The notes below the pieces were generated by a model. That model worked only from the letters and a program-made list of their open reading frames with translations, ran no database searches and was not told the origin of the DNA. 64,000 nt of DNA from a virus: the IMG/VR virus record IMGVR_UViG_2509601031_000003; one strand, given 5' to 3'. The position numbers and the translations under genes were made by a program. Positions 2,706 through 58,790 of the stretch are shown piece after piece. How positions within the stretch are numbered: position 1 is the stretch's first letter; every line of letters begins with the position of its first letter.

Positions 2706-3429
2706 AAGATCGCGGTCTGTACTGGTGAAAGAAGGTGAGTAGATTGTCGAGCTGAATACTGCCAGTCGTTCGCTGGTTTTCCAAATTTAGCAGGAGTACC
2801 GGATTTTGATACTCGACTTCGTATTCTCCATCCACCTTACGCCGCTTAACACCGTTTCCTGCGTCTGTTTGAGTCAGGATCAGAACCTGCCCGAACATCT
2901 GTTTAATCCGAATTACCTCGGCCTCTTCACTCGTAAAATCGAACCCCGCCCAGTAATCAATTTGAATTGCAGGAGTTTGGGGCCGCTGTGTGGGCCGGGT
3001 GCGACGTGGGCTTGAAGAATAAATCCCCGCTGGCGCGGCTGAGTAAAGCGAGGGCTGTAGTAACCCGTACCCTAAAATCTGCAGTTCCCCCGTCTTAGAA
3101 TCAATCTCAGCTTGTTCAGGATCAAGGTCAACCCACCCAGCAACAGGCGCGTCTAGGCTGTAGCTCGGCAGTGTTCCGCCTCGAATCTTGACGCGGATCG
3201 GAGTCTCTTCAGCGATCGGTAAAATCGGCAGGTTTGCGAGGTACGCTCTGCCGTCACCGGAGAGATTTAGTGTTTCAGTAAACTTTGTAGGACTCAGAGG
3301 GCGATTCGCGCCAAGGACGCTTTCGATTAAGAACTGTGTTGAGACGATCGCGCTTTCGAGCGCCGCCCCGTATAGGCTCAGCGCAGGCGCGTAGGTTAAT
3401 GCTTCCGATGCTTCAATAATTGTTTTCAC
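2695..3429 (-). CDS. Putative head-tail connector/adaptor
   Basis: GTG start chosen; IQIDYWAGF...IKQMFGQVL...VKRRKVDGEYEVEY resembles gp6/gp15-type adaptor C-termini; lies in head module. Confidence 0.45.
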   Translation of the reverse strand: MKTIIEASEALTYAPALSLYGAALESAIVSTQFLIESVLGANRPLSPTKFTETLNLSGDGRAYLANLPILPIAEETPIRVKIRGGTLPSYSLDAPVAGWVDLDPEQAEIDSKTGELQILGYGLLQPSLYSAAPAGIYSSSPRRTRPTQRPQTPAIQIDYWAGFDFTSEEAEVIRIKQMFGQVLILTQTDAGNGVKRRKVDGEYEVEYQNPVLLLNLENQRTTGSIQLDNLLTFFHQYRPRSYAA

Positions 3430-3503
3430 AAGCTTCGCTGTCCTGCTCTCAAGTATTGCGCTGTGGCGCAAGCAATGGAATTCATATTACTCGCGGAAGC
3501 TTG

Positions 3504-3526
3504 AAATCGGTCACGCTGTCCGATTT
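3504..3526. repeat. 23-bp palindrome copy 2
   Basis: AAATCGGTCA-CGC-TGTCCGATTT. Confidence 0.95.
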
Positions 3527-3794
3527 GGGAAGATCAGCGATCATAGCTTTCACCGTTACTTCCCAAAGTACAGCAGGAACCCATTACGCCAGCTTTTACA
3601 GGGGCTTCCAAAGTAGCCACTAAGCGGTACAAGCCCAACGATTCCCCACCCCAAAAACTTGCCGCCGTCACTTTCATCACTTTGTACGCGGCACAGGCGG
3701 ATGAACAGCCATTGCAAGACATAGAAGTTTAGAAAATGCATCACGTTACGCTTACCTCAAAAAAGCTCGAATACCCCGTGAATCAAGAATCGCC

Positions 3795-5396: not shown

Positions 5397-5419
5397 AAAT
5401 CGGTCAGCGTGACCGATTT
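5397..5419. repeat. 23-bp palindrome copy 4
   Basis: AAATCGGTCA-GCG-TGACCGATTT; contains terL stop. Confidence 0.95.
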
Positions 5420-6696
5420 CGAGATCTTACAGATCCAATCGGCGCGGACATCTCATGACTGACCTCAGAGATCGGCATCACCTTCGATATGAAATAGCCC
5501 GAAGAATCATTAAGGTGATCAAACCCCTGTGTCTTATCCGGCTGCCCATCTTTCCAAACCTGCTGCTCTAGGCACTGCACATACTCAGGACACCGCAGCG
5601 CGTTCACTCGATAGCGGCGCTGCCCCTTCGCATTGCAGAAGGCCGCGTTCATTGCATTAATGCGATCGCGCACTGACGGATTTGTCTTATCTACAATGAC
5701 CTCGAAGCCCGCCTGCTTCAATAGCGCGATATCAGACTCAGAAGCGTTCTTAGTGCTGCGATTATTCCCGCTCGCGTCTGGATAAACCTTGATTAATCCT
5801 TGCTTCGCGTGGTCTGGGTAGCGCTCCTTAATCGCGACAATCATCGCAGGTGTGTCTTGAAGATTCACAAATTCATCCACGGCCCGCGGCTCCTGCATCC
5901 GAAAAACATGAACGACCGCCGCCATTTTGCCCACGTTGAAATCCATGCCGAGATGTAGGTATTCGAGATCCGGTTCATCCAGGCAATTGTTCAGCGCGCG
6001 ATCGAAGCTGGTATAAATCGCGCCTTGGGTCAGGTTTACAAATTCCCCATTCAGGTAAGCGCGAATCAGTTGCGGCGGATAGTTTTCGAGCAGCGACTCG
6101 ATAAAGTCCTCCGGCAGAAACGGATTATCGGTTGATTTGGCATGAATAAGTCTGCGATCGCTTTTTCCCGCCGCCTCTTTCACAAAGAACTCCCACAGCA
6201 GCCCGAAACCTTCGGGCGTACTGACGACAGCCACTTGCCGCACCTTACCGACGCGAATCCGCCCCATTAGCAACTTGAACGCGGGTTTACTAATACGCGG
6301 CTCAACCACGTCAATTTCATCAACACAAGCAAAGCTGAGGTTATTGGCCCGAATCCGCCGCCAGTTCTCAAAGCTGCGAACTAAAACGCGAGTTTTACCA
6401 TTCGGGAAAAACAGGGTGTAGGACGGCAAGGGAGACGCACGAAATTTGTAGGGGATACCCAAAGCCTCAAGCTGATCATCCATCTCAGGAATCAGCGTGT
6501 CATTTGCGAGGGTATGCGTTGGACTGTAGAGCGCTCCATCCGTTCCGACATTTTTTGAGGCTAATAGAATCGTTTTCAGGATTAGGCTTTTGGTCTTTCC
6601 TGCTCCAAACCCTGCGACCAACGCGAGATATTTACTCGTGAAATCGTTGCAGAAACTAAGCTGATGCTTCAGAACTTGCGTCTTCGCTATCGTCAT
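5404..6696 (-). CDS. terL: Terminase large subunit
   Basis: Walker A-like AGFGAGKT, Walker B CVDEID, STPEG, nuclease motifs GMDFN, YPDASG, DHLND. Confidence 0.95.
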   Translation of the reverse strand: MTIAKTQVLKHQLSFCNDFTSKYLALVAGFGAGKTKSLILKTILLASKNVGTDGALYSPTHTLANDTLIPEMDDQLEALGIPYKFRASPLPSYTLFFPNGKTRVLVRSFENWRRIRANNLSFACVDEIDVVEPRISKPAFKLLMGRIRVGKVRQVAVVSTPEGFGLLWEFFVKEAAGKSDRRLIHAKSTDNPFLPEDFIESLLENYPPQLIRAYLNGEFVNLTQGAIYTSFDRALNNCLDEPDLEYLHLGMDFNVGKMAAVVHVFRMQEPRAVDEFVNLQDTPAMIVAIKERYPDHAKQGLIKVYPDASGNNRSTKNASESDIALLKQAGFEVIVDKTNPSVRDRINAMNAAFCNAKGQRRYRVNALRCPEYVQCLEQQVWKDGQPDKTQGFDHLNDSSGYFISKVMPISEVSHEMSAPIGSVRSRNRSR

Positions 6697-7216
6697 CGGG
6701 TGTAATTAGTTCTAACTCAATACCATCGGGGGCAGATTCTTCGACTTGTTCTTTGAATATTCCGAAGCGATCGGCAAGTTTTTCTAAAGCTCTCAATTTA
6801 TCGTGCATCGCGATCGTCGTTGTTACTTTTTCGATTGGATTCCCGTCCTTTACTGGAATCGTCATCGTCGTTACGCTAATCGATTTAATCGCGGCAGTGA
6901 CATCTTTACCAAGTGTTGCTGAGTCTTTCAGCTTGACCCCGCTTTCGTTAAAACTAATCACATCAGTGATGTCACACAAGGCAATGCGGATAAACTCTGT
7001 GAGGACACGATCGCTGTCAATTTGCAGTCTTTCCGCTTGTCTTGCCTGCAATTCGGCAAGATAAGCCTGAACGTTAACATTCGCCAACAGCCTAGAAGCC
7101 GCAGACCGCCCCGCTTTGTCGTTTTTGGGTTGGTATCCTGCCCGTCGATACGCAGCAGCGGCATTGAAATCGATCGCGAATTGTTCTGTAAATCGTTTCT
7201 GTCTCGGGGTCAGCAT
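6656..7216 (-). CDS. terS: Terminase small subunit
   Basis: LTPRQKRFTEQFAIDFNAAAAYRRAGY...ASRLLANVNVQAYL and DKLRALEKL; immediately upstream of terL. Confidence 0.92.
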   Translation of the reverse strand: MLTPRQKRFTEQFAIDFNAAAAYRRAGYQPKNDKAGRSAASRLLANVNVQAYLAELQARQAERLQIDSDRVLTEFIRIALCDITDVISFNESGVKLKDSATLGKDVTAAIKSISVTTMTIPVKDGNPIEKVTTTIAMHDKLRALEKLADRFGIFKEQVEESAPDGIELELITPDDDSEDASSEASA

Positions 7217-7593: not shown

Positions 7594-7998
7594 ATGGGCA
7601 TATCAGCAACTAGGAAAAACGATATGTTCACCAAATCCGCAGCAAAAAGAATCCTCGCAAGCCTCGCTACTAAAATCGAAGCAGTTCGCGAACTGAAGAA
7701 CGTCGTTCAAGTTACCTACAGAACCCGCAAAGGTCGCTGCTCTACCTTCATCAGCAAGAAAGCATTCGAGCGGGATTTCGTTGAGTTTCGCAAGGCTGGC
7801 GCAAAATCACTCATTGTTGAGACTGTTAAATTTCAGTCTGGCGTTTTCAATGTCTACAACACGGAAAAGAAATCCCAGTACGTTGTGAATACCCAGTTTG
7901 CTTGCACCTGCGAAGATTACCAGCAACATCAAAAGCCCTGCAAGCATGTGTATGCGGTTCTTGGAGTGGGTTCTCTTGCTGATGCGATCGCGGCTTAA
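7594..7998 (+). CDS. SWIM zinc-finger protein
   Basis: CTCEDYQQHQKPCKHVYAV (CxCx9CxH). Confidence 0.75.
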   Translation: MGISATRKNDMFTKSAAKRILASLATKIEAVRELKNVVQVTYRTRKGRCSTFISKKAFERDFVEFRKAGAKSLIVETVKFQSGVFNVYNTEKKSQYVVNTQFACTCEDYQQHQKPCKHVYAVLGVGSLADAIAA

Positions 7999-8010
7999 GG
8001 AGTACAAATC

Positions 8011-8283
8011 ATGACAACTAAGCAACAGCAACTTTTAGACTTACAAATCAGCATCGCTCGTGAAGAATGCCAAAAGCAATTACGGGAACTCGTCAAAGAC
8101 GCAGTAGTTGAACCGGTTGAAAACGGCTTTGTGGTTCACAACTATCGCGATCGTAAAAAAGGAAAACCTAAAGATGCTTGGATTCCAAGTGCTCAAACAT
8201 TGATTAGTCAGGATTTCTGGGTATGTCACCCCTTCCCTGAGAATCTTTACCAGTTTGTAGGCGAATGGCTTAAAGAGAATTGA
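8011..8283 (+). CDS. Hypothetical protein
   Basis: AGGAG RBS upstream; 90 aa. Confidence 0.55.
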   Translation: MTTKQQQLLDLQISIAREECQKQLRELVKDAVVEPVENGFVVHNYRDRKKGKPKDAWIPSAQTLISQDFWVCHPFPENLYQFVGEWLKEN

Positions 8284-8305
8284 AATCGGACAGGCTGACC
8301 GTTTT
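8283..8305. repeat. 23-bp palindrome copy 5
   Basis: AAATCGGACA-GGC-TGACCGTTTT; overlaps stop 8283. Confidence 0.95.
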
Positions 8306-8582: not shown

Positions 8583-8894
8583 TTATACCTCACGATTCTC
8601 TGTTCGGTTTGGATTTTGCAAAGCCGCACGAATCTCCAAGAACGGAACATTGTCCGAACTGCCCCAACCGTAGTTTCTATCCCAGTAAATGAAGCTTGAC
8701 CAACCGCTTAGACGATCGACTAAAATCCAAGTCGGAACTTTCCGGCGCTTGCGAACACTCCATCCGCGCGATCGTAAATAGCTCATCACGCGCGGATCAA
8801 GTCCGTACTGTGGCAAGTAGCAGTAATTTGACATACTTTCGACTACACAATGACAACACAAACGAGGCGGGAAATTCAGCGCATCGCTGAACAA
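8583..8894 (-). CDS. Hypothetical protein (true start may be internal)
   Basis: Trp/Arg-rich 103-aa ORF overlapping the sigma start. Confidence 0.35.
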   Translation of the reverse strand: MFSDALNFPPRLCCHCVVESMSNYCYLPQYGLDPRVMSYLRSRGWSVRKRRKVPTWILVDRLSGWSSFIYWDRNYGWGSSDNVPFLEIRAALQNPNRTENREV

Positions 8895-10670
8895 AACCTT
8901 AACTTGGTTCGCAAAATTGCCAGCAGGTTTAGCAGTGAGGCTGAGACGTTTGATGATTTTGTAAGTATTGGGACGATCGGCTTAATGAAAGCTGTCGAGC
9001 GATTCGATGAATCGAAAGGGTTTGCGTTTAGTACCTTTGCAGTCCCGTACATCAAAGGCGAAATCCTCCACTACATCAGAAGCGCTAAAGGAGAGTTGAT
9101 CCGACATCGCCGAGGTGAACGACGGCAATATATTCAGAGCCTTGATGCTCCGCTTAGCTCGGATTCAGAAACAACTCGACTAGACATCGTTGCTGACGAT
9201 CTTATTGTTGTAGAACCCGATGACGAGCAAGTTCAACTCAAGGCAATTCTGAATCAATTAACTTACCCGTCACGTGAAGTCCTTCTCCTAACTCAATTAA
9301 ACGGACTCCGAAAGAAAGAAGCTGCTGCATGGTTTGAAGTTGATCCGACGACAATTCAGCGCTGGTTAAGCAAAGCACAGGTCGAAATTGAAGCAGCCAA
9401 ACAAGATCATCGGTTCAAGACTCAGACCTACAAGCGAGAGCGTAATGCACTGCCTTATCGTGACGACATTAGCAAAGAACTTGTGTTCCCTGAATTCAAA
9501 TCACGCTGTCAGGTTTGCGATCGCATATTTGCGCTCTGGAAGAAACCAAGTCGCATTCCCCAAACCTGCTCTAGTGTTTGCGCCCGCAAGCTCTCTGCAC
9601 AAGCGAATTCTATAAACATATGGAGCGATGCCGAACTAGATTTTCTTAAATCAAGAATCGGCAAGATGCCCACAGCAAAAATCTATGAGTCATTCCACGT
9701 CGCGGCTGCTCACCACGGATGGACAGATCGCACTGATGTTGCTCTAAAAGTTAAAATTACGCGCCTTGCAAAATCCGTGAAGTGTGTTGATGACGGATGG
9801 AGCATGACCGATCTCGCTAAACGGTTAGATGTCCCAGTAGATCGTATTCGTGTCTGGAAAAAGCGCGGACTCAAAACAGAGATGGTTGCGCGAGGCATAA
9901 CAGGTCAATGTGTCATTTATCGAGTTGCGCTACATGAATTCTGCACTGAGCATTTTTGGCGGTTCTCAGGCATTGATATCGATAGGTTGAGCGAGATTTT
10001 AGGAGATCGCGCTCTTGCTGAGAAATGCGCGGCTCAACCCCTGAAAAAGAAGCGTGTTGAGGTACAAGATCTTAGATCGAAGAAGATTTACCGGAGTGCC
10101 CGCGAAGCTGCGAGAGTATTAGGGGTTGAACGTCAGTTTGTGCTGCGTGAGATTAAGCGAGAGGAGAACGCACTGCTTAAACAAAGCCACGTCGAAACGA
10201 TTGGTCATTCTGAGCTTGTTCCATCGATCGATGAACTGAAAAGGCGAACCTCGCTGATTGATCCATCTCTACCAATGAAAGTGCGCGTGTTCCGTTCTCC
10301 TGACGGCAAACTATACGAAACCAATAATCTCAACTGGTTTGCACAGGTACATGGTTTACAATCTCCTTTACTGTCATCGCTTGCAAACGGGTTTCAGGAT
10401 TCTCATCTCGGTTGGACACGTCCTTTTGGTTCCTATCAACTGCGGCTAATTACTCCATCCAAACGAGAGGATGTGGTGGTGCAGGAAGGTACAACAATTT
10501 TTGATCTAAATGATCCGGGTGATCGGCTGCGAGCTTATCTTACTCCAGATGAAGGGATGCAAGTTTTCGTGATGCCAGAAAGTACGATCTTGAAAGATCC
10601 CGAAACCAAGCTACGGGAATACGCGAAGCTGCACAGACTTGAAATTATTTGTTGCAAAAAGAGAGGCTGA
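8850..10670 (+). CDS. Sigma-70 family factor fused to Zn-finger, HTH and NUMOD-like DNA-binding modules
   Basis: Region 2 NLNLVRKIA...GTIGLMKAVERFDESKGFAFSTFAVPYIKGEILHYIR; region 4 HTH; then CQVC..CSSVC, WSDAELDFLK, MTDLAKRLDV..IRVWKKRG, YRSAREAARVLGV. Confidence 0.85.
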   Translation: MTTQTRREIQRIAEQNLNLVRKIASRFSSEAETFDDFVSIGTIGLMKAVERFDESKGFAFSTFAVPYIKGEILHYIRSAKGELIRHRRGERRQYIQSLDAPLSSDSETTRLDIVADDLIVVEPDDEQVQLKAILNQLTYPSREVLLLTQLNGLRKKEAAAWFEVDPTTIQRWLSKAQVEIEAAKQDHRFKTQTYKRERNALPYRDDISKELVFPEFKSRCQVCDRIFALWKKPSRIPQTCSSVCARKLSAQANSINIWSDAELDFLKSRIGKMPTAKIYESFHVAAAHHGWTDRTDVALKVKITRLAKSVKCVDDGWSMTDLAKRLDVPVDRIRVWKKRGLKTEMVARGITGQCVIYRVALHEFCTEHFWRFSGIDIDRLSEILGDRALAEKCAAQPLKKKRVEVQDLRSKKIYRSAREAARVLGVERQFVLREIKREENALLKQSHVETIGHSELVPSIDELKRRTSLIDPSLPMKVRVFRSPDGKLYETNNLNWFAQVHGLQSPLLSSLANGFQDSHLGWTRPFGSYQLRLITPSKREDVVVQEGTTIFDLNDPGDRLRAYLTPDEGMQVFVMPESTILKDPETKLREYAKLHRLEIICCKKRG

Positions 10671-10692
10671 AATCGGTCACGCTGTCTGATTT
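10670..10692. repeat. 23-bp palindrome copy 6
   Basis: AAATCGGTCA-CGC-TGTCTGATTT; overlaps both convergent stops. Confidence 0.93.
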
Positions 10693-11264
10693 GATGAGTT
10701 TCCAGGTTGCAAGCTCCAACCCTGCTTCCAATGGTTTTCGATTACGACACCTTTCGCTCTGAGTCGATAGATATATTGCTTTGCATCATCAATTGTCGAG
10801 ACTCCTAGAAACTCGCGAATCTCTGAAGCAGTTAAAATTCGCTGTGAATTATCAACAAAGAATTGATACAACTGCCTTTGTCTCTCAGATCTGAAACGGT
10901 TCTTTTCTTCCGGGATTTCTTCGACTTCTAAAAGATGCCCTAATGCAGCGTTGATCCTGAGCATCACCTCACAAAAATCAAACGGCTTTTTGATATATTC
11001 GATCGCTCCATTACGAAACGCCTTTGCAATCTCGTAATCGCACTCATCACCAATTACAATTTTGGGGGTTTTCCGAGAAATACTTTTGATCTTTGGAGCA
11101 TCTATTAACGCTGCAACGATCGAATCTTTATCGAATCTCGAATTCCAATCAACAAACTGAAAGTCAAGACAATATCGACTCAGATACTTCACCAGCTTGT
11201 TGTAATCCGTGAGAACAAGAATGTCTCCGCTCTTAGCCACGATCTCTTTCACTTGATAATCCAT
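10677..11264 (-). CDS. Atypical response regulator (receiver + winged HTH)
   Basis: AFRNGAIEYIKKPFDFCEVMLRI receiver C-terminus; YIYRLRAKG...ENHWKQGWSL OmpR-like wing. Confidence 0.7.
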   Translation of the reverse strand: MDYQVKEIVAKSGDILVLTDYNKLVKYLSRYCLDFQFVDWNSRFDKDSIVAALIDAPKIKSISRKTPKIVIGDECDYEIAKAFRNGAIEYIKKPFDFCEVMLRINAALGHLLEVEEIPEEKNRFRSERQRQLYQFFVDNSQRILTASEIREFLGVSTIDDAKQYIYRLRAKGVVIENHWKQGWSLQPGNSSNQTA

Positions 11265-24446: not shown

Positions 24447-24683
24447 TCAACCGTCAAATTTCACCCCAAAATCAGTGTCTAGCGCCCGTTCGATCCCCCT
24501 TAAAACGTCCTCCGTAATGTACTGGCGCTTACCTTTCTCGATCTCGTACCAATAGGCGGTTGAAATTCCCGCCTCAGTAGCCAACGCCTGAGCGGATCTA
24601 CCACTAGCCTCTCTAAGCTCTTTGATCCGCTTCTCTAAGTCGGGAACCGTTACTCGAATCTGTCTCACAACATCCACTAGCAT
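24447..24683 (-). CDS. XRE-family HTH regulator
   Basis: RIKELREASGRSAQALATEAGISTAYWYEIEKG. Confidence 0.85.
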   Translation of the reverse strand: MLVDVVRQIRVTVPDLEKRIKELREASGRSAQALATEAGISTAYWYEIEKGKRQYITEDVLRGIERALDTDFGVKFDG

Positions 24684-33953: not shown

Positions 33954-34358
33954 ATGAACGGTCCGAACAAGTCCTCTGAATATGCTGCTTTAGCTGAGGT
34001 TGTCAGCCAGTTAAAACAGTACTTTGACCGTTCGGATGCTAGATTCGACCGGTTGGAAATCACAATTCAAAGAAACAACGATGCCTTAATAATGCGAGTC
34101 AATTCTGTTGAGCAAGACCTGGAAGAAAAGATCGAGAAGCTTGAAGCGGAAGCAAAACAGCGAGATATCACGATCGCGAAACTAGAGACTCAACTCCACA
34201 CCCTGAATCGAGTCTGCACCGCTGCCGCCGTTGCAATTTTTGGCGCGACTGTCGCGATCGTGGTTCCGAATTGGTTTCGACCCAGTAATGCTAAGACTCC
34301 AGCACTAGAACGCCCCAGCGAGAAGAAACAAACGGCACACTCGTATTTGTTTCTCTAG
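33954..34358 (+). CDS. Coiled-coil + single TM protein (XhlA/holin-like)
   Basis: Long coiled coil then VCTAAAVAIFGATVAIVV; converges on M23 gene. Confidence 0.45.
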   Translation: MNGPNKSSEYAALAEVVSQLKQYFDRSDARFDRLEITIQRNNDALIMRVNSVEQDLEEKIEKLEAEAKQRDITIAKLETQLHTLNRVCTAAAVAIFGATVAIVVPNWFRPSNAKTPALERPSEKKQTAHSYLFL

Positions 34359-34804
34359 CACTTGATTAAGGTGCATGGGTTCACTAAGGTCCAGGCATCA
34401 CCCATTCTTCGTCTGACTTCTATGTGCAAATGTGGCCCAGTCGAAAAACCAGTGCTGCCCACTTCCGCGATCGCATCTCCCGCTCGAACTTCTTGACCTT
34501 TGACTACAAGAATTCGATGAGCGTGAGCGTATAGTGTTTGGAAGTCTTCGCTTTCGACAATTACCGTGTTTCCAAAAGTGCCATAGCTCTGCGCGATTTT
34601 AACAATCCCGTCATGAGCTGCGAGAATCGTACTGCCTTGTGGAGCCGCGAAATCAGTTCCGCGATGAAAGCGCCTGCCGCCGTCGATTGGGTGAGTGCGT
34701 GGTCCGTATGGGGAAGATACGATCGCGCGTTTCGCTAACGGGTATTGCAATTCGGAAGCTTGAGCAACGATCGCCGGAATATCCAGGAACAACGGGAGCA
34801 TCAA
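34355..34804 (-). CDS. M23-family peptidase (putative endolysin)
   Basis: HRGTDFAAP (HxxxD) and STGPHLHIEV (HxH). Confidence 0.9.
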   Translation of the reverse strand: MMLPLFLDIPAIVAQASELQYPLAKRAIVSSPYGPRTHPIDGGRRFHRGTDFAAPQGSTILAAHDGIVKIAQSYGTFGNTVIVESEDFQTLYAHAHRILVVKGQEVRAGDAIAEVGSTGFSTGPHLHIEVRRRMGDAWTLVNPCTLIKC

Positions 34805-38199: not shown

Positions 38200-38563
38200 T
38201 GCATTTCTCCTGTAGTTGGTTGATTTGATACCCCTGAACAATCGAAGCGAGTGCAGCAAGCGCGGCTGTTCCTGTTACTGCTACCAATGCCAAGCAGCAG
38301 TAAGACTTCAAAGAAGCGATCGCTGATCTCAGCTCGGAAATCGTTTTTTCGGATTCCGCCTTCTGCTGCTGTCTCAGCTTACTGAGTCCGTTGAGATGCT
38401 CAATGATTTGAGCATTGGACTCAGTAAGTGTTTGAATCTGCGTTTCGTGGTCGATGATTGCAGCTTCAATTGAAAAGTCATGCAAGGACGATCGCGGCTG
38501 ATTCAAATCGGTCGGGCTGTCCGGTTTGCGGTTGGTTGGTTTGGCGTAGGACCTCATAGCCAC
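38159..38563 (-). CDS. Coiled-coil + TM protein
   Basis: Coiled coil then YCCLALVAVTGTAALAALASIV. Confidence 0.55.
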   Translation of the reverse strand: MAMRSYAKPTNRKPDSPTDLNQPRSSLHDFSIEAAIIDHETQIQTLTESNAQIIEHLNGLSKLRQQQKAESEKTISELRSAIASLKSYCCLALVAVTGTAALAALASIVQGYQINQLQEKCNARQSLPAQTRKN

Positions 38564-38891
38564 CTGAAACTTTTTTAATTGCGGTGTGTTCAGCCAAGAA
38601 CTCTAGATAGAAATCGCCGTCGCTGGACGTGACCGTTTTCACCTTGCACCGAGATTCCGGCGCTTCCTCCTCGGAGTGCTGCGAAATCAGAGTTTCCCCT
38701 TCACCCATCAAGTCCTGAGTGAGAAAGCGAGTCTGAGTAAAGTCGTAATCCTCGACGGCGACAATTACGCCGTCTCGTCGATGCACGAACAGCAAGCGAT
38801 GCTGACGGCTCCCCAGAGCCGCAGGCACAATCAGCAGGGACAGGGTTGAACGATCAGTTTTGACGAGTAATTTCTGAGTTGCGTTGATCAT
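38478..38891 (-). CDS. Hypothetical protein
   Basis: Start MINATQ after AAGGAG. Confidence 0.5.
   Translation of the reverse strand: MINATQKLLVKTDRSTLSLLIVPAALGSRQHRLLFVHRRDGVIVAVEDYDFTQTRFLTQDLMGEGETLISQHSEEEAPESRCKVKTVTSSDGDFYLEFLAEHTAIKKVSGGYEVLRQTNQPQTGQPDRFESAAIVLA
38505..38527. repeat. 23-bp palindrome copy 15 (gene overlap)
   Basis: AAATCGGTCG-GGC-TGTCCGGTTT. Confidence 0.8.
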
Positions 38892-39271
38892 GGTTTGGCT
38901 CCTTGAGTGATCTGACATTTGGGCTGTACTGCAATCCAGGCGGTGCAGAGCGAAACCCCTAGCACTAAGCCCAGAACAAATGCAGCCAACACCCAAATTC
39001 TTGATTTCAGCGCAAAAATCGCACTCATGAACGCCAATCGCATCTGCCATTCGTGGCGAATCAAATCAAATTGAGTCGCTTGTTGCTGCTGCGCTTGCTC
39101 GATTTCTTGGCTGATTAGTTGCGATAGCTCATGGTCGGTCATGCCATTGAGATTTCGCAGAATACTAAACTCGATCGCGGCTTGTTGCTTCGCAAGTTGA
39201 CCTGTGGACTCACAAACCTGCTGAGTCCGACTGGAAGAAACTTGCTGCAAATAGCGATCGTAATAGGTCAT
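38888..39271 (-). CDS. Coiled-coil + TM protein
   Basis: IWVLAAFVLGLVLGVSLCTAWIAV. Confidence 0.55.
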   Translation of the reverse strand: MTYYDRYLQQVSSSRTQQVCESTGQLAKQQAAIEFSILRNLNGMTDHELSQLISQEIEQAQQQQATQFDLIRHEWQMRLAFMSAIFALKSRIWVLAAFVLGLVLGVSLCTAWIAVQPKCQITQGAKP

Positions 39272-39627
39272 AGGTCGATGCCGTATTCCTTGAGAAATTC
39301 AGACGCGATTTGCCTGGAATCTTGAACCGCTTCTTTTACGGATGCTTTCGTAACTTGCAATCTTCGAGCGTTTTCGGCTTCGGTTAGAGGGAGTTGAGCT
39401 TCAACCTTGGTCGCAGCTTCTACCTCAATCATGGCGGGGACAGCGTTGTAAACACTAGCAACGATATCGGATGTCTCACCCACAATCGCGCGGGCATTCT
39501 CGATCGCGCTATCAATCTGCAATGCGCCCTGAGCAGCGAGCTTGCGACGGGCAGAATCTCCCTTTTTGCCGCGCTTGGGAGTATTCGGAACTGGGATGTT
39601 ATTCTCTTGAATCGCGAGGTCGGACAT
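39268..39627 (-). CDS. Hypothetical helical protein
   Basis: GGAGG RBS before MSDLAIQE. Confidence 0.55.
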   Translation of the reverse strand: MSDLAIQENNIPVPNTPKRGKKGDSARRKLAAQGALQIDSAIENARAIVGETSDIVASVYNAVPAMIEVEAATKVEAQLPLTEAENARRLQVTKASVKEAVQDSRQIASEFLKEYGIDL

Positions 39628-39952
39628 CAAATTCCTCCAAAATTCGACGATGGACAAGTGGATAAAGCTCTTTGTAGCCTCTTCCCGTAAAACTTCGAGC
39701 GCCAAAGCGATGTAGTAAGGCGCAGGTGATTAGTCCTGACAGGATCGCCAGCGGCGCTGAATCTTCAGATTTTCCCGACACACAAAACCGAGCGCACCAC
39801 CGCGAAAAGGTCGGGGCGGGGATGGGTTTACCTGCAACCGCATTACAGCGATCGCGGATGTAAGCGATCGAGATCTGAAGCTCGGTTGTCTCAGTTTCAT
39901 GTGTGAAAGTTTGAACCATTTCCACCGATTTACTTGGGTTTGAGACTTTCAT
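39599..39952 (-). CDS. Putative HTH DNA-binding protein heading the membrane/ATPase operon
   Basis: ISIAYIRDRC...IPAPTFSRWC HTH-like pattern. Confidence 0.45.
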   Translation of the reverse strand: MKVSNPSKSVEMVQTFTHETETTELQISIAYIRDRCNAVAGKPIPAPTFSRWCARFCVSGKSEDSAPLAILSGLITCALLHRFGARSFTGRGYKELYPLVHRRILEEFDVRPRDSRE

Positions 39953-40055
39953 GTGTGAAAGTTCATTAAAAGACTAGCACATAATTTCCCTAAGAACGTA
40001 CCTTAGTGAGTACTCAAAAGGTATATTTTGAATACAGTCTCAATGAGCGCGTATT

Positions 40056-56766: not shown

Positions 56767-56942
56767 TGGTGTCAATCCACATGGGCGATCCTAACTGCCC
56801 AATCTGCAGCAATCCTACAGTTCGGTCTTATAGCTCTGTCGCTATCGGCGGAGTTGTTCTGCACTGCCAGCGGTGCGGTATGTCTGTCCCTCTCGCGGGA
56901 CTCAAGAAATGGGGCACAACCCAGCAGGAGGCTGAATTTTGA
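56766..56942 (+). CDS. Zinc-ribbon peptide
   Basis: CPICS...HCQRCG; coupled on both sides. Confidence 0.5.
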   Translation: MVSIHMGDPNCPICSNPTVRSYSSVAIGGVVLHCQRCGMSVPLAGLKKWGTTQQEAEF

Positions 56943-57532
56943 AACTACTACTCATCGACTTAGACGGCACAATTCGATATGGGACAGATAACCCCAAAGG
57001 GTTCGTGAATAACCCAACACAACAGGCGATTTTCCCAGATGCCGCAAAACAACTCCAGAGCTATTACGATCGCGGTTGGCAAATCATTGGAATCAGTAAT
57101 CAGGGTGGAATCGAGAAAGGCTACGTCTCCCTGGATGCTGTACTTCAAGGAATGCGGCAGACGATCAACCTTGCACCACAAATTTACGACATCTATTTCT
57201 GCCCTAGCTTCACGCCTCCAGGGACTGAGGTTTATCGATGTGGCTATCGAAGCGATACGGGCGCTTGGGGTTCTCTTCGGGTGAATTTACAGAACTATCC
57301 GGTTCGCTGTGGTTATCGCAAGCCTGAGCCTGGAATGCTGTTGATGGCGATCGAGGATTGTGTCTGCCGTCCAAGTGAAGTTCTCTACGTAGGAGATCGT
57401 CCAGAAGATGAGCAAGCTGCCGCCGCCGCAAATATTCCATTCATGTGGGCAGAGAATTGGCGGGCAGGGACTGATGACTATCGCGATATCAGTGCAGAGA
57501 CTTTGTATCTAAGGCTGGAGGATGATCTGTGA
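56939..57532 (+). CDS. HAD-IIIA hydrolase (polynucleotide 3'-phosphatase/GmhB-like)
   Basis: IDLDGT, SNQGG, RKPEPGM, YVGDRPED. Confidence 0.88.
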   Translation: MKLLLIDLDGTIRYGTDNPKGFVNNPTQQAIFPDAAKQLQSYYDRGWQIIGISNQGGIEKGYVSLDAVLQGMRQTINLAPQIYDIYFCPSFTPPGTEVYRCGYRSDTGAWGSLRVNLQNYPVRCGYRKPEPGMLLMAIEDCVCRPSEVLYVGDRPEDEQAAAAANIPFMWAENWRAGTDDYRDISAETLYLRLEDDL

Positions 57533-58293
57533 GCCGTACTGACGAACTTCTGCAAGCGATTCTTGATGAACTGCGATCGCGCAATCAACTCCTCGGCTTC
57601 CACGCCCCATTCAAGAAAAAGGTGATTTATGCCAACCGAAGTTACACAGACTGTCTCTGGTACTTTTTCGATGGCGCAAGCAAAACTCACATCCCTATCG
57701 AGCATCACGCTCTGACCGGAATTATCGAAAAACTCGAAATCGAAGAGAAAGAATTTCGCGGCAAACCTGATTACAAGGTGAACCTACACATCCGCGCCGA
57801 CCGCGCTTATGTCATTCAATCGGGGCATGACACCCTTTTTGCCCGTGGCTTAGTCTTTATGCTCTCAAAGCTCCCAGTCGCTGCATTTCGACAGCCAATT
57901 ACAATTGCTGTCGAAGCTGGAGATACAGAACAAGTCCTGTTCTGCCGTATCTACAATCCTGCAACGGGCGAAGCCGTGTTTGCACCGTATCCGGATCAGG
58001 TCAACTGGGAACAAGTGACCGCAGTGGCGATCGACAAAATCCAACGCGCCCACGAAACCGAGAGTCAAACCCACGAAGCGCCTGAGCAGCCTGAGCCTGA
58101 GAAGTTGGATTTATCGGATGCGATCGCCGCCATTCCCGTTGAGATGGAGCGCATCGGCTGGACGAAGAAACAGGGATCAGAATATTTGCAAACCAAGTAC
58201 GACAAAAAGACTCGCGCTGAGCTGGATGATCAGGAGATGTTCGAGTTTTTAAGACATCTGAGATCGTTGCCAACTCGAACTAAGGTTGCTTGA
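57529..58293 (+). CDS. Hypothetical protein
   Basis: 254 aa; C-terminal WTKKQGSEYLQTKY.KKTRAELDD helical module. Confidence 0.6.
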   Translation: MSRTDELLQAILDELRSRNQLLGFHAPFKKKVIYANRSYTDCLWYFFDGASKTHIPIEHHALTGIIEKLEIEEKEFRGKPDYKVNLHIRADRAYVIQSGHDTLFARGLVFMLSKLPVAAFRQPITIAVEAGDTEQVLFCRIYNPATGEAVFAPYPDQVNWEQVTAVAIDKIQRAHETESQTHEAPEQPEPEKLDLSDAIAAIPVEMERIGWTKKQGSEYLQTKYDKKTRAELDDQEMFEFLRHLRSLPTRTKVA

Positions 58294-58315
58294 AATCGGT
58301 CAGCCTGTCCGAAAT
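58293..58315. repeat. 23-bp palindrome copy 20
   Basis: AAATCGGTCA-GCC-TGTCCGAAAT; overlaps both convergent stops. Confidence 0.93.
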
Positions 58316-58518
58316 GCGCGATCGAGATCTTCAATTGTGCACTGATAAAGTTGAGTGAGTTTCAACGTCTGCCAAGGCTCCAACCTTGGCACTTCCGATC
58401 CCTCTTCCCACTGCTTTAATGTTGATTCTTCAACTTGGATCGCTTCCGCTACCTGCCGCTGCGACAGGTTGGCTTTTTGGCGTAGTGCGATCGCCGCGTT
58501 ATTTGTTTGAACTTCCAC
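58300..58518 (-). CDS. XRE-family HTH regulator
   Basis: LRQKANLSQRQVAEAI...TLKQWEEG. Confidence 0.85.
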   Translation of the reverse strand: MEVQTNNAAIALRQKANLSQRQVAEAIQVEESTLKQWEEGSEVPRLEPWQTLKLTQLYQCTIEDLDRAFRTG

Positions 58519-58553: not shown

Positions 58554-58790
58554 CTAATTAATTTCGTCAGGATTAATCCGGTCAAAAGCAATACTTAAAT
58601 CTTCTAGAGAGCATTGATAGAGCTTCATCAATAGGATCGTTTCACTAAATGTTAACTGGGGTCGTCGAGTGCCGCGCTCCCAGTCTGAAATCGTTTGAAC
58701 TCGCTTGTTCAAACGTTCTGCAACCTGCCGCTGGGTTAGCCCCGCTCGTGTTCGTAATCCCGCAGGTGTAATTTCTTCGTTATTTTTCAT
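58554..58790 (-). CDS. XRE-family HTH regulator (tandem paralog)
   Basis: LRTRAGLTQRQVAERL...TISDWERG; shared LYQC..EDL. Confidence 0.88.
   Translation of the reverse strand: MKNNEEITPAGLRTRAGLTQRQVAERLNKRVQTISDWERGTRRPQLTFSETILLMKLYQCSLEDLSIAFDRINPDEIN

What the first reader, a model, noticed from the sequence alone, without database searches (positions are those of the whole stretch)
8850..10670. Phage sigma factor fused to a string of extra DNA-binding modules
Seen: about 190 aa of group-3-like sigma (regions 2 and 4) followed in frame by about 410 aa with a CxxC...CxxxC finger, a Myb-like WSDAELDFLK segment, a MerR-like HTH (MTDLAKRLDV..IRVWKKRG) and two NUMOD-like segments (YRSAREAARVLGV; FRSPDGKLYETNNL). 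Established: phage sigma factors are usually compact; NUMOD modules come from homing endonucleases. Inference: a sigma with its own long-range site recognition. It is a candidate late-gene activator and a candidate binder of the 23-bp site, one copy of which overlaps its stop codon.
Basis: partly seen in the sequence, partly recalled or inferred. Interest (0 to 1): 0.65.

Follow-up and report, generated by a model that had tools for sequence, protein, structure and literature searches.

The report
Phage sigma factor with homing-endonuclease-type DNA-binding tail
A prophage in a cyanobacterial chromosome encodes a transcription-initiation (sigma) factor permanently fused to five DNA-binding modules of the kind homing endonucleases use to read long target sites; this rare but conserved design is not described in the literature I could search and suggests a sigma that carries its own promoter-targeting arm.

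Summary
ORF 8850-10670 (+) encodes 606 aa: a sigma-70 moiety (regions 2 and 4) followed in frame by five modules.
- A four-Cys zinc ribbon.
- A Myb/homeodomain-like three-helix HTH.
- A MerR/Xis/small-terminase-type winged HTH.
- Two beta-beta-alpha-alpha-beta HTH domains of the I-TevI/I-HmuI (NUMOD-like) type.
No nuclease domain is present.

The fusion is not a lone read-through. Ten further diverged proteins share the architecture, with invariant cysteines and a conserved junction. The sigma moiety is a SigF-like group-3 sigma that has lost its sigma-3 domain, a deletion seen in the three family members aligned.

The gene lies in a ~70-kb prophage and was not found in 400 other genomes of the phylum.

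Most likely it is a phage sigma whose tail reads DNA upstream of the -35 element. That mechanism is inferred, not shown.

The proposed link to the 23-bp palindrome is weak. The site is real, private to the element and shared with a sister provirus that also has the fusion. But it is symmetric, lies mainly at gene ends, and equally conserved XRE-type repressors are more orthodox readers.

I rate it a new variant of a known kind, moderately to highly interesting.

The parts
8850..10670 (+). Whole gene: sigma factor fused to a five-module DNA-binding tail (606 aa, P0001)
   Evidence: Open frame; single copy in the genome; full-length homologs at 63% and 48% identity.
8865..9089 (+). Sigma domain 2 (regions 1.2-2.4), residues 6-80
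   Evidence: Pfam Sigma70_r2 E 2.6e-17; 46-50% identical to host SigF-like sigmas; Foldseek matches to sigma chains in RNAP holoenzyme structures.
9090..9221 (+). Short region-3.2-like linker, residues 81-124; the sigma-3 domain is absent
   Evidence: ~45-residue gap relative to host paralog L003, shared by P0002, P0121 and P0123; low pLDDT; Pfam Sigma70_r3 only E 0.11.
9222..9404 (+). Sigma domain 4 (-35-binding HTH), residues 125-185
   Evidence: Pfam Sigma70_r4_2 E 8e-10, PhyR_sigma-like, HTH_28; pLDDT >93.
9405..9494 (+). Conserved junction (KRxRNALPY...), residues 186-215
   Evidence: Motif conserved in all sigma-fused family members, which argues for an old, selected fusion.
9495..9605 (+). 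Four-Cys zinc ribbon, residues 216-252 (Cys220, 223, 240, 244)
   Evidence: Cysteines invariant in 9 sequences. Model shows two beta-hairpins plus a helix at pLDDT >95. Weak profile similarity to eL24/FCS-type zinc ribbons (E 0.01). Homologs' fingers match non-catalytic parts of HNH-endonuclease PHROGs.
9615..9785 (+). Myb/homeodomain/GcrA-like three-helix HTH, residues 256-312
   Evidence: VIA-align Z 5.0-6.4 to Zeste, Mu transposase, TnsB, Myb R2R3, GcrA DBD and CENP-B; Pfam Myb_DNA-binding in homologs; W258 nearly invariant.
9786..9971 (+). MerR/Xis/small-terminase-type winged HTH, residues 313-374
   Evidence: Pfam HTH_23 E 8e-9 and MerR_1 24.7 bits (cut-off 21.6); VIA Z 5.1-6.3 to RppC, Pukovnik Xis, small terminase, BldC and MerR N-domains; W336 invariant in 50 sequences.
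10044..10202 (+). First homing-endonuclease-type beta-beta-alpha-alpha-beta HTH (NUMOD-like), residues 399-451
   Evidence: Profile A3 vs PDB sequences: 8B6E E 1.9e-11; VIA Z 7.1 to 8B6E and Z 6.9 to the I-TevI DNA-binding domain; 8B6E binds dsDNA with KD 3.4 nM (PMC10319021); NUMOD1 above Pfam cut-off in homologs P0125 and P0127.
10263..10439 (+). Second homing-endonuclease-type HTH (I-HmuI C-terminal type), residues 472-530; absent from some family members
   Evidence: Foldseek 1u3e prob 1.00, rmsd 1.2 A over 47 residues; VIA Z 5.9 to I-HmuI 116-174; PHROG 2081 HNH endonuclease at 480-523; relatives carry 3-6 tandem copies in GIY-YIG/NUMOD-like proteins; missing in P0124-P0126.
10440..10667 (+). 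Lineage-specific, poorly structured tail, residues 531-606
   Evidence: pLDDT 31-48 over most of it; not conserved among the three closest homologs; no similarity to the preceding module.
10670..10692 (.). Copy of the element-private 23-bp palindrome. It shares base 10670 with the TGA stop of the fusion gene and contains the stop of the convergent gene 10677-11264(-). This copy is degenerate.
   Evidence: does not fold better than shuffles on either strand.
8283..8305 (.). Upstream copy of the palindrome. Together with 10670-10692 it brackets the block holding the fusion gene.
   Evidence: In the sister provirus the fusion gene is likewise bracketed, with copies at 38367 and 40213 of G002 around the gene at 38460-40049.

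Best explanation
The gene encodes a phage alternative sigma factor with a built-in promoter-targeting arm.

The N-terminal 185 residues are a SigF-type sigma that has lost its sigma-3 domain. It keeps sigma-2 (core binding, -10 recognition and melting) and sigma-4 (beta-flap binding, -35 recognition). From the C-terminus of sigma-4, which in holoenzymes faces upstream DNA, a conserved linker leads into five small DNA-binding modules: a zinc ribbon, a Myb-like HTH, a Xis/MerR-type winged HTH and two I-TevI/I-HmuI-type HTHs. This is the same kind of beads-on-a-string array that homing endonucleases use to read 30-40 bp targets, here without any nuclease.

I infer that the tail contacts phage DNA upstream of -35. 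It would act as a covalently attached activator or UP-element reader. That would compensate for the missing sigma-3 contacts and give host RNA polymerase very high specificity for a small set of phage promoters, probably middle or late ones.

Shown: domain identities, conservation of the fusion, phage context, and DNA binding by a crystallised homolog of one module.
Inferred: RNAP binding, the upstream-DNA geometry, and the target gene class.
For: - Sigma domains 2 and 4 are significant by Pfam, PHROG and NCBIfam. They resemble sigma chains of solved holoenzymes and are 46-50% identical to host group-3 sigmas in region 2.
- The sigma-3 deletion is shared by the three family members aligned with it (P0002, P0121, P0123).
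- The fusion recurs in P0002, P0003, P0121-P0123, P0125-P0127, P0130 and P0133, with invariant Cys and a conserved junction.
- The tail model is confident, pLDDT 91.8. Every module matches DNA-binding folds.
- One module matches 8B6E at E 1.9e-11, a nanomolar dsDNA binder whose only close structural relatives are the I-HmuI and I-TevI DNA-binding domains.
- Viral structure neighbours are almost all homing endonucleases plus the stand-alone cyanophage module.
- No nuclease domain is detected in the 606 residues.
- The same tail module exists alone (cyanophage S-LBS1 gp46 and more than 100 clusters). It is therefore an autonomous DNA-binding unit that has been attached to a sigma.
- The gene sits in a prophage next to terminase and tail genes.
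Against: - No promoter or extended upstream motif could be found: k-mer and dyad searches over the intergenic DNA of both phages gave only HIP1-related words.
- The gene's position is not syntenic in the sister provirus, so the controlled gene class is unknown.
- RNAP binding and transcription activity are untested.
- C-terminal extensions of other sigma factors (my recollection of ECF41/ECF42) are regulatory rather than DNA-binding.
- 8B6E binding data were obtained on arbitrary promoter fragments and show affinity, not specificity.
Confidence: 0.55

Rival explanations
1. The tail binds the element-private 23-bp palindrome (half-site AAATCGGWCA). This would tether the sigma or RNAP at ~23 gene boundaries, for example to restart or insulate transcription at module junctions.
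For: - The palindrome occurs about 23 times in the window and nowhere else in the 7.26-Mb genome.
- The only other viral contig with many copies (24-26) is the sister provirus, which also encodes the 63%-identical fusion.
- Copies bracket the fusion gene in both phages.
- The fusion's HTH recognition helices are conserved between the two phages.
- W positions in the two arms vary independently, and degenerate copies do not fold. The site therefore looks DNA-read rather than RNA-structural.
Against: - The site is two-fold symmetric, whereas the tail is an asymmetric array of different modules. The second NUMOD-like HTH is missing in some family members.
- Copies lie mostly at gene 3' ends or fill whole intergenic gaps, which is not a promoter-upstream position.
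- Overlap with this gene's stop is not specific, since many genes end in a copy.
- Both phages also share XRE/Cro-type proteins, one 62% identical with an identical recognition helix.
- Co-occurrence rests on n = 2.
- Spacer length varies (3 or 4 nt) within one phage.
Confidence: 0.12
2. The tail is mainly a regulatory or protein-interaction domain: auto-inhibitory, anti-sigma-like, or a dock for another factor. Sigma-2 and sigma-4 alone define promoter specificity.
For: - C-terminal extensions of some ECF sigma groups act as regulators (my recollection of ECF41/ECF42; the ECF reclassification paper PMC7826278 appeared but was not read).
- A four-Cys zinc site could be redox- or metal-sensitive.
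- No tail target motif was found.
Against: - All five modules match DNA-binding folds.
- One is homologous to a proven dsDNA binder.
- The module exists as a stand-alone protein in phages without any sigma partner fused.
Confidence: 0.1
3. The protein does not act as an initiation factor. Either it is a site-specific DNA-binding regulator (repressor or roadblock) that uses its sigma domains to trap or sequester host RNAP core, or it is a host-takeover decoy competing with host sigmas.
For: - Loss of sigma-3 and the short, low-confidence 3.2 linker might impair initiation.
- Phages commonly redirect host RNAP by non-catalytic factors (general review text read).
Against: - Regions 2 and 4 are well conserved across the family, including residues shared with host SigF-like sigmas.
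- Two-domain ECF sigmas initiate without sigma-3 (established knowledge).
Confidence: 0.1
4. The fusion is a vestige: a homing endonuclease inserted next to a phage sigma gene, lost its nuclease and became fused, and the tail has no current function.
For: The tail modules are those of homing endonucleases, and no nuclease domain remains.
Against: - The architecture is kept in ten further proteins at 35-63% identity, with invariant cysteines, tryptophans and a conserved junction.
- The model is very confident.
- A neutral vestige would decay.
Confidence: 0.04

Closest known systems
Group-3 sigma factors of the SigB/SigF/SigG type (cyanobacterial SigF, NCBIfam PRK07408; TIGR02980)
   Same: Best family matches for region 2. 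46-50% identity to the host's own SigF-like sigmas. Regions 2, 3.2-like linker and 4 are collinear.
   Different: Lacks the sigma-3 domain. Scores far below the curated cut-offs of these families (108.6 vs 261; 91.2 vs 234). Carries a 420-residue C-terminal extension.
DNA-binding arms of phage homing endonucleases I-TevI (GIY-YIG) and I-HmuI (HNH): zinc finger, linker and NUMOD/HTH modules
   Same: The same kinds of small modules strung together (zinc finger plus HTH domains). Direct structural matches to both proteins' HTH domains. Viral structural neighbours are almost all homing endonucleases. The I-TevI arm has also been crystallised on an operator site (title of PDB 1T2T), which points to a transcriptional role.
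   Different: No GIY-YIG or HNH catalytic domain. The arm is attached to a sigma factor instead. It has additional Myb-like and Xis/MerR-type wHTH modules.
Paulinella short chromatophore-targeted DNA-binding proteins (sCTP-23166, PDB 8B6E)
   Same: Significant sequence-profile match (E 1.9e-11) and the best structural match (Z 7.1) to residues 399-451. Same beta-beta-alpha-alpha-beta HTH. Experimentally a high-affinity dsDNA binder.
   Different: sCTPs are ~60-residue stand-alone eukaryote-encoded proteins. Here the domain is one bead in a multi-domain bacterial-virus protein.
Stand-alone Zn-ribbon/Myb/wHTH/NUMOD proteins of phages (e.g. Synechococcus phage S-LBS1 gp46, 211 aa, 'hypothetical protein')
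   Same: Homologous over residues ~217-440 (tblastn 28% over 179 residues; phmmer E down to 1e-23). Probably the BFVD top hit, a nameless 211-residue entry (the same length as S-LBS1 gp46; identity not verified), at E 1.1e-11 and TM 0.62.
   Different: No sigma domains. In S-LBS1 the gene lies in the replication/recombination module. Function unknown.
Sigma factors with C-terminal extensions (ECF41, ECF42 and similar; from memory) and activator-assisted sigma systems (T4 MotA/AsiA sigma appropriation; from memory)
   Same: Concept: extra specificity or regulation added at the sigma-4 end of a sigma; an activator that reads DNA near or upstream of -35.
   Different: To my knowledge those extensions are not arrays of DNA-binding domains, and MotA is a separate protein. 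Here the DNA-reading part is covalently fused. Neither was compared computationally here.

Membership tests
Sigma-70 family (superfamily level) | Region 2 (core binding, -10 recognition) | tested here: met
   Pfam Sigma70_r2 62.8 bits (cut-off 24), E 2.6e-17; TIGR02937 85.7 bits (cut-off 42.9).
Sigma-70 family (superfamily level) | Region 4 (-35 HTH, beta-flap binding) | tested here: met
   Pfam Sigma70_r4_2 38.7 bits (cut-off 25.7).
Sigma-70 family (superfamily level) | Binds RNAP core and directs initiation | not testable with these tools
   Needs biochemistry.
Group-3 SigB/SigF/SigG sigma factors | Presence of a sigma-3 domain (region 3.0/3.1) | tested here: not met
   ~45-residue gap against host SigF-like L003; Pfam Sigma70_r3 13.1 bits (cut-off 25.3); only one short helix between residues 80 and 125.
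Group-3 SigB/SigF/SigG sigma factors | Score above the curated family cut-off (TIGR02980, PRK07408) | tested here: not met
   91.2 vs 234.35 and 108.6 vs 261. Best hits, but partial, covering region 2 only.
ECF (group 4) sigma factors | Two-domain sigma-2/sigma-4 architecture | tested here: met
ECF (group 4) sigma factors | Sequence membership (Pfam Sigma70_ECF) | tested here: not met
   15.2 bits vs cut-off 21.1; region 2 is closest to group 3.
Homing endonucleases (GIY-YIG / HNH) | Modular DNA-binding arm (zinc finger, NUMOD/HTH) | tested here: met
Homing endonucleases (GIY-YIG / HNH) | Catalytic nuclease domain | tested here: not met
   No GIY-YIG, HNH or other nuclease family among Pfam, PHROG or NCBIfam hits over the 606 residues. 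PHROG 'HNH endonuclease' hits cover only non-catalytic profile positions 204-247.
NUMOD1 / I-HmuI NUMOD-like HTH domain | Beta-beta-alpha-alpha-beta HTH fold and family-level sequence similarity | tested here: met
   This protein scores below the Pfam cut-off (PF22083 14.3 vs 27). However, family profile vs 8B6E gives E 1.9e-11; Z 7.1, 6.9 and 5.9 to 8B6E, I-TevI and I-HmuI; homologs P0125 and P0127 pass the NUMOD1 cut-off.
MerR-family transcription regulators | N-terminal winged HTH | tested here: met
   PF13411 24.7 bits (cut-off 21.6); structural matches to MerR N-domains Z 4.8-4.9.
MerR-family transcription regulators | Long dimerisation coiled coil and effector-binding domain | tested here: not met
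   Pfam match covers only profile positions 2-25 of 69. The model shows short helices after the wHTH and no long coiled coil. The domain resembles Xis, small-terminase and BldC wHTHs equally well.
FCS/eL24-type zinc ribbon | Four zinc ligands in a CxxC...CSxxC ribbon | tested here: inconclusive
   Four invariant Cys; only weak profile hits to eL24 (E 0.01) and zf-FCS (E 0.026 in 2 of 8 relatives).
Repressor 'stoperator'-like iterated operator (for the 23-bp site) | Many copies confined to one phage genome, intergenic | tested here: met
   23 copies in the window; all 17 strict copies of the 7.26-Mb genome fall within 70 kb; reversed-pattern control 0.
Repressor 'stoperator'-like iterated operator (for the 23-bp site) | Bound by the phage repressor | not testable with these tools
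   Candidate readers (XRE proteins, the fusion) cannot be distinguished by conservation.

The most novel reading that the evidence does not exclude
This would be a natural 'programmable' sigma factor. Promoter selection would be largely delegated to a homing-endonuclease-style modular array fused to sigma-4, so the holoenzyme recognises a composite promoter of roughly 50 bp or more (-10, -35 and a long upstream element). That would make a previously undescribed way for a virus to build an orthogonal transcription channel on host RNA polymerase. The stand-alone version of the same array would be its trans-acting ancestor.
Probability: 0.4. Interest if true: 0.75.

Novelty: new variant of a known kind. 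Interest (0 to 1): 0.6.

Why it matters
Sigma factors are thought of as compact proteins that read two short promoter elements, with extra specificity normally coming from separate activators. A conserved family in which a sigma carries five additional DNA-binding modules in cis would add a third strategy, alongside phage sigmas and phage activators or appropriators, for redirecting host RNA polymerase.

It would also show homing-endonuclease targeting arms being reused for transcription. This parallels I-TevI, whose DNA-binding domain has been crystallised on an operator site (PDB 1T2T title), and the Paulinella sCTP proteins.

Practically, such a protein could be a template for orthogonal, highly specific transcription switches in cyanobacteria. 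It also gives a handle on gene regulation in temperate cyanophages, which is poorly known.

Tried and rejected
1. Fetching the genomic context of distant fusion homologs:
- Subfamily alignments A5 and A6 found nothing in IMG/VR.
- The metagenome scan gave only a weak plain-sigma hit.
- The genome-contig scan with A1 returned only ordinary sigma factors.
- As a result, the fusion/palindrome co-occurrence test stays at n = 2.

2. Promoter discovery: exact k-mer enrichment and 5-mer/gap/5-mer dyad enrichment in the intergenic DNA of both phages gave only HIP1-type CGATCG words. The upstream regions of the two fusion genes do not align.

3. RNA hairpin or terminator reading of the palindrome: perfect copies fold at -12 to -17 kcal/mol. 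But 12 of 22 copies carry an arm mismatch, the copy at this gene's stop folds no better than shuffles, and none is scored as a canonical terminator in the 7-14 kb stretch scanned. This reading is not excluded for the sister phage, where all copies are perfect.

4. The 195-aa wHTH neighbour (10677-11264, minus strand) as a conserved partner: it has no homolog next to the sister's fusion gene.

5. The idea that 500-580-aa proteins with the module at their N-terminus carry a sigma-like C-terminal half (a reverse-order fusion): this came from language-model neighbours. It is not supported by Pfam, the PDB profile search or hhalign (probability 1.3%).

6. The tail at 531-606 as a degenerate third NUMOD repeat: no similarity found.

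7. Literature: no paper in the searchable library describes a sigma factor fused to NUMOD or homing-endonuclease DNA-binding modules. This is an absence in that library only.
Full report
OBSERVATION

The window has an uninterrupted 606-codon ORF at 8850-10670 on the + strand.

The N-terminal third is a sigma-70 family protein:
- Pfam Sigma70_r2 at residues 13-80 (E 2.6e-17) and Sigma70_r4_2 at 129-176 (E 8e-10).
- PHROG 351 'RNA polymerase sigma factor' over residues 6-178 (E 5.5e-34).
- NCBIfam best hits are cyanobacterial SigF (PRK07408) and SigB/F/G (TIGR02980). These cover region 2 only and score far below their curated cut-offs. The superfamily model TIGR02937 passes.

CONTEXT

The window is C1:4,768,651-4,832,650 of a 7.26-Mb, 99.99%-complete genome, and the gene is single-copy there. 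Its closest paralogs are three host SigF-like sigmas, 46-50% identical in region 2.

The neighbourhood is phage. Small and large terminase lie at 5404-7216 on the minus strand, a SWIM protein lies upstream, and structural-looking genes including a 2985-aa ORF lie downstream. HIP1-type GCGATCGC words are abundant, which fits a cyanobacterial host.

The non-sigma part was not found in 400 other genomes sampled across the phylum. It is therefore a rare, phage-borne gene.

IS THE FUSION REAL AND CONSERVED?

Yes.
- The word-indexed search found two full-length relatives: P0002 (589 aa, 63%) and P0003 (624 aa, 48%).
- An exhaustive phmmer search of residues 190-606 against 1.84 billion cluster representatives gave 357 hits.
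- Eight of these (P0121-P0123, P0125-P0127, P0130, P0133; 395-608 aa) match from about their residue 160-230 onward. They carry Sigma70_r2 at their N-termini, and seven of the eight also carry r4.
- In a nine-sequence alignment the four cysteines, W258, the wHTH core and a junction motif (KRxRNALPY) are conserved. The second NUMOD-like module is optional.
- All ten members looked up are singleton clusters, mostly known only from metagenome assemblies, and are named at most 'sigma factor'.

THE SIGMA MOIETY

Aligned with the host SigF-like protein of locus L003, the fusion lacks about 45 residues that correspond to the sigma-3 domain. It retains region 2, a 3.2-like linker (SLDAP...D..T) and region 4. 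The same deletion is present in P0002, P0121 and P0123.

The AlphaFold model shows only one short helix and low confidence between residues 80 and 125. Architecturally it is ECF-like (sigma-2, linker, sigma-4). By descent it is group 3.

THE TAIL

The full-length model has mean pLDDT 84. A separate model of residues 205-530, built on a 69-sequence alignment, has pLDDT 91.8. The domain parse in protein numbering is:

1. Residues 216-252: two beta-hairpins plus a helix carrying Cys220/223/240/244. Profile similarity to eL24/FCS zinc ribbons is weak. In homologs this segment matches non-catalytic parts of phage HNH-endonuclease PHROGs.
2. Residues 256-312: a three-helix domain with Z 5.0-6.4 to Zeste, Mu transposase, TnsB, Myb R2R3, GcrA and CENP-B DNA-binding domains.
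3. Residues 313-374: a winged HTH matching RppC, mycobacteriophage Xis, small-terminase N-domains, BldC and MerR N-domains (Z 4.8-6.3). Pfam MerR_1 is just above its cut-off, but only for the HTH.
4. Residues 399-451: a beta-beta-alpha-alpha-beta HTH. The family profile hits the crystal structure 8B6E at E 1.9e-11. Structure comparison gives Z 7.1 to 8B6E and Z 6.9 to the I-TevI DNA-binding domain.
5. Residues 472-530: a second HTH of this kind. It matches I-HmuI residues 116-174 (Z 5.9; Foldseek probability 1.00, rmsd 1.2 A).

The 8B6E paper reports that this domain binds dsDNA with KD 3.4 nM. It also reports that its only close structural relatives are the HTH domains of I-HmuI and I-TevI (PMC10319021).

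Against predicted viral structures, the best hit is a 211-aa protein (E 1.1e-11, TM 0.62). That is the same length as the stand-alone cyanophage S-LBS1 gp46 that tblastn had found, though I did not verify that it is the same protein. Nearly all other hits are HNH, GIY-YIG, MobE or 'HTH' homing endonucleases.

No nuclease domain is detectable in the protein. Residues 531-606 are variable, poorly modelled, and not a detectable repeat.

The phmmer search also shows that residues ~217-440 form an autonomous module:
- It occurs as a ~190-250-aa stand-alone protein in many clusters.
- It also occurs at the N-terminus of 500-580-aa proteins whose C-terminal half remains unidentified.
- The ~480-530 module occurs in 3-6 tandem copies in SegE-like GIY-YIG and NUMOD-like proteins.

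THE 23-BP SITE

The palindrome (half-site AAATCGGWCA, 3-nt centre) occurs 23 times in the window. With a strict pattern, all 17 genomic copies fall within C1:4,764,019-4,834,035, and a reversed-pattern control gives zero. The site is therefore private to a ~70-kb element that extends slightly beyond the window.

Copies lie mostly at gene 3' ends or fill short intergenic gaps, and several include a TGA stop. One copy (10670-10692) shares its first base with the fusion gene's stop and contains the stop of the convergent gene.

The W positions in the two arms vary independently: 10 of 22 copies are matched. Mismatched copies, including the one at this gene, fold no better than shuffled sequence. 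Perfect copies fold at -12 to -17 kcal/mol, and none in the 7-14 kb stretch I scanned is a canonical terminator. I read this as a DNA site made of two half-sites rather than a selected RNA hairpin.

A scan of IMG/VR found many copies in only one other contig, a 74-kb provirus (G002) that also encodes the 63%-identical fusion. There the half-site is identical, all arms are perfect, and the spacer is mostly 4 nt but sometimes 3. Copies again bracket the fusion gene.

This co-occurrence is suggestive, but it rests on two phages. These phages share few proteins. The best conserved are the fusion (63%), an unknown 254-aa protein (63%) and a 78-aa XRE/Cro-type protein (62%, recognition helix identical). 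Two further XRE proteins are also shared.

A dimeric XRE repressor is the orthodox reader of a symmetric operator. The fusion's tail is an asymmetric array whose two NUMOD-like HTHs have different recognition helices. I therefore give the 'fusion binds the palindrome' reading about 12%.

MECHANISM

I propose the following.
1. Sigma-2 and sigma-4 bind host core RNAP as in any sigma-70 family member.
2. From the end of sigma-4, the conserved linker projects the tail toward DNA upstream of -35.
3. There the five modules read an extended sequence, much as a homing-endonuclease arm reads its long target.

This would compensate for the lost sigma-3 contacts. It would also confine the holoenzyme to a few phage promoters.

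What is shown: the domain identities, the conserved fusion, DNA binding by a crystallised homolog of one module, and the phage context. What is inferred: RNAP binding, the geometry, and the gene class controlled.

The position between divergent packaging and tail operons hints at late genes, but that position is not conserved in the sister provirus. I could not find a recurrent promoter-like or extended motif.

COMPARISON AND NOVELTY

- The protein is a member of the sigma-70 superfamily.
- It fails two defining tests for canonical group 3: it has no sigma-3 domain and scores below the family cut-offs.
- It is not an ECF member by sequence.
- Its tail works like, and is homologous in parts to, the DNA-binding arms of I-TevI and I-HmuI-type homing endonucleases. 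It is not a homing endonuclease, because it has no nuclease.
- Searches of the paper library found no description of a sigma factor fused to such modules.

I classify it as a new variant of a known kind: an alternative sigma factor with an unprecedented type of DNA-binding extension.

LIMITS

- Contexts of the more distant family members could not be retrieved.
- No experiment-level evidence exists for this protein.

Noticed in passing
window 539-62536 (23 copies); G000:C1:4764019 and 4834015 lie outside the window: The 23-bp palindrome is private to a ~70-kb element in a 7.26-Mb genome. A sister provirus (IMGVR_UViG_3300037420_002493) has 24-26 copies with the identical half-site but mostly a 4-nt spacer, even though the two phages share few genes. 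The arms' W positions vary independently in the window but are always T in the sister.
   Followed up: partly
window 57529-58293 (+): A 254-aa protein with no Pfam or PHROG match is as conserved between the two palindrome-bearing phages (63%) as the sigma fusion. It ends exactly at a palindrome copy (58293). It is an unexamined candidate partner or site reader.
   Followed up: no
window 58554-58790 (-), 58300-58518 (-), 24447-24683 (-): Three small XRE/Cro-type HTH proteins. The first is 62% identical to its sister-phage ortholog and has an identical recognition helix. These are the orthodox candidates for reading the palindrome.
   Followed up: partly
window 10677-11264 (-): The convergent neighbour is a 195-aa protein with a weak AbiEi_4/HTH_11-type winged helix at its C-terminus. 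It is not conserved next to the fusion in the sister provirus, where an M23 peptidase (homolog of window 34355-34804) sits instead.
   Followed up: partly
L001 (Synechococcus phage S-LBS1, gp46, locus 2983-3618): A stand-alone 211-aa version of the Zn-ribbon/Myb/wHTH/NUMOD module lies between a helicase and a VRR-NUC nuclease in the replication/recombination module of a cultured cyanophage. It is annotated as hypothetical.
   Followed up: partly
proteins P0128, P0129, P0134, P0136, P0140 (alignment A7): A family of 500-580-aa proteins carries the same DNA-binding module at the N-terminus, followed by ~300 residues with no recognisable family. Language-model neighbours suggested sigma-4/GerE-like HTHs, but profile tests did not confirm this.
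   Followed up: partly
window 7594-7998 (+): A SWIM zinc-finger protein (Pfam E 3.3e-7) lies in the regulatory island upstream of the fusion gene.
   Followed up: no
window 56939-57532 (+): A HAD/PNK3P-type phosphatase-like protein (polynucleotide kinase 3'-phosphatase family hit) lies in the region shared with the sister provirus.
   Followed up: no
whole window and G002: HIP1-type words (GCGATCGC / CGATCG) dominate k-mer enrichment in both proviruses, so the phages share the host's hyper-abundant palindrome.
   Followed up: no
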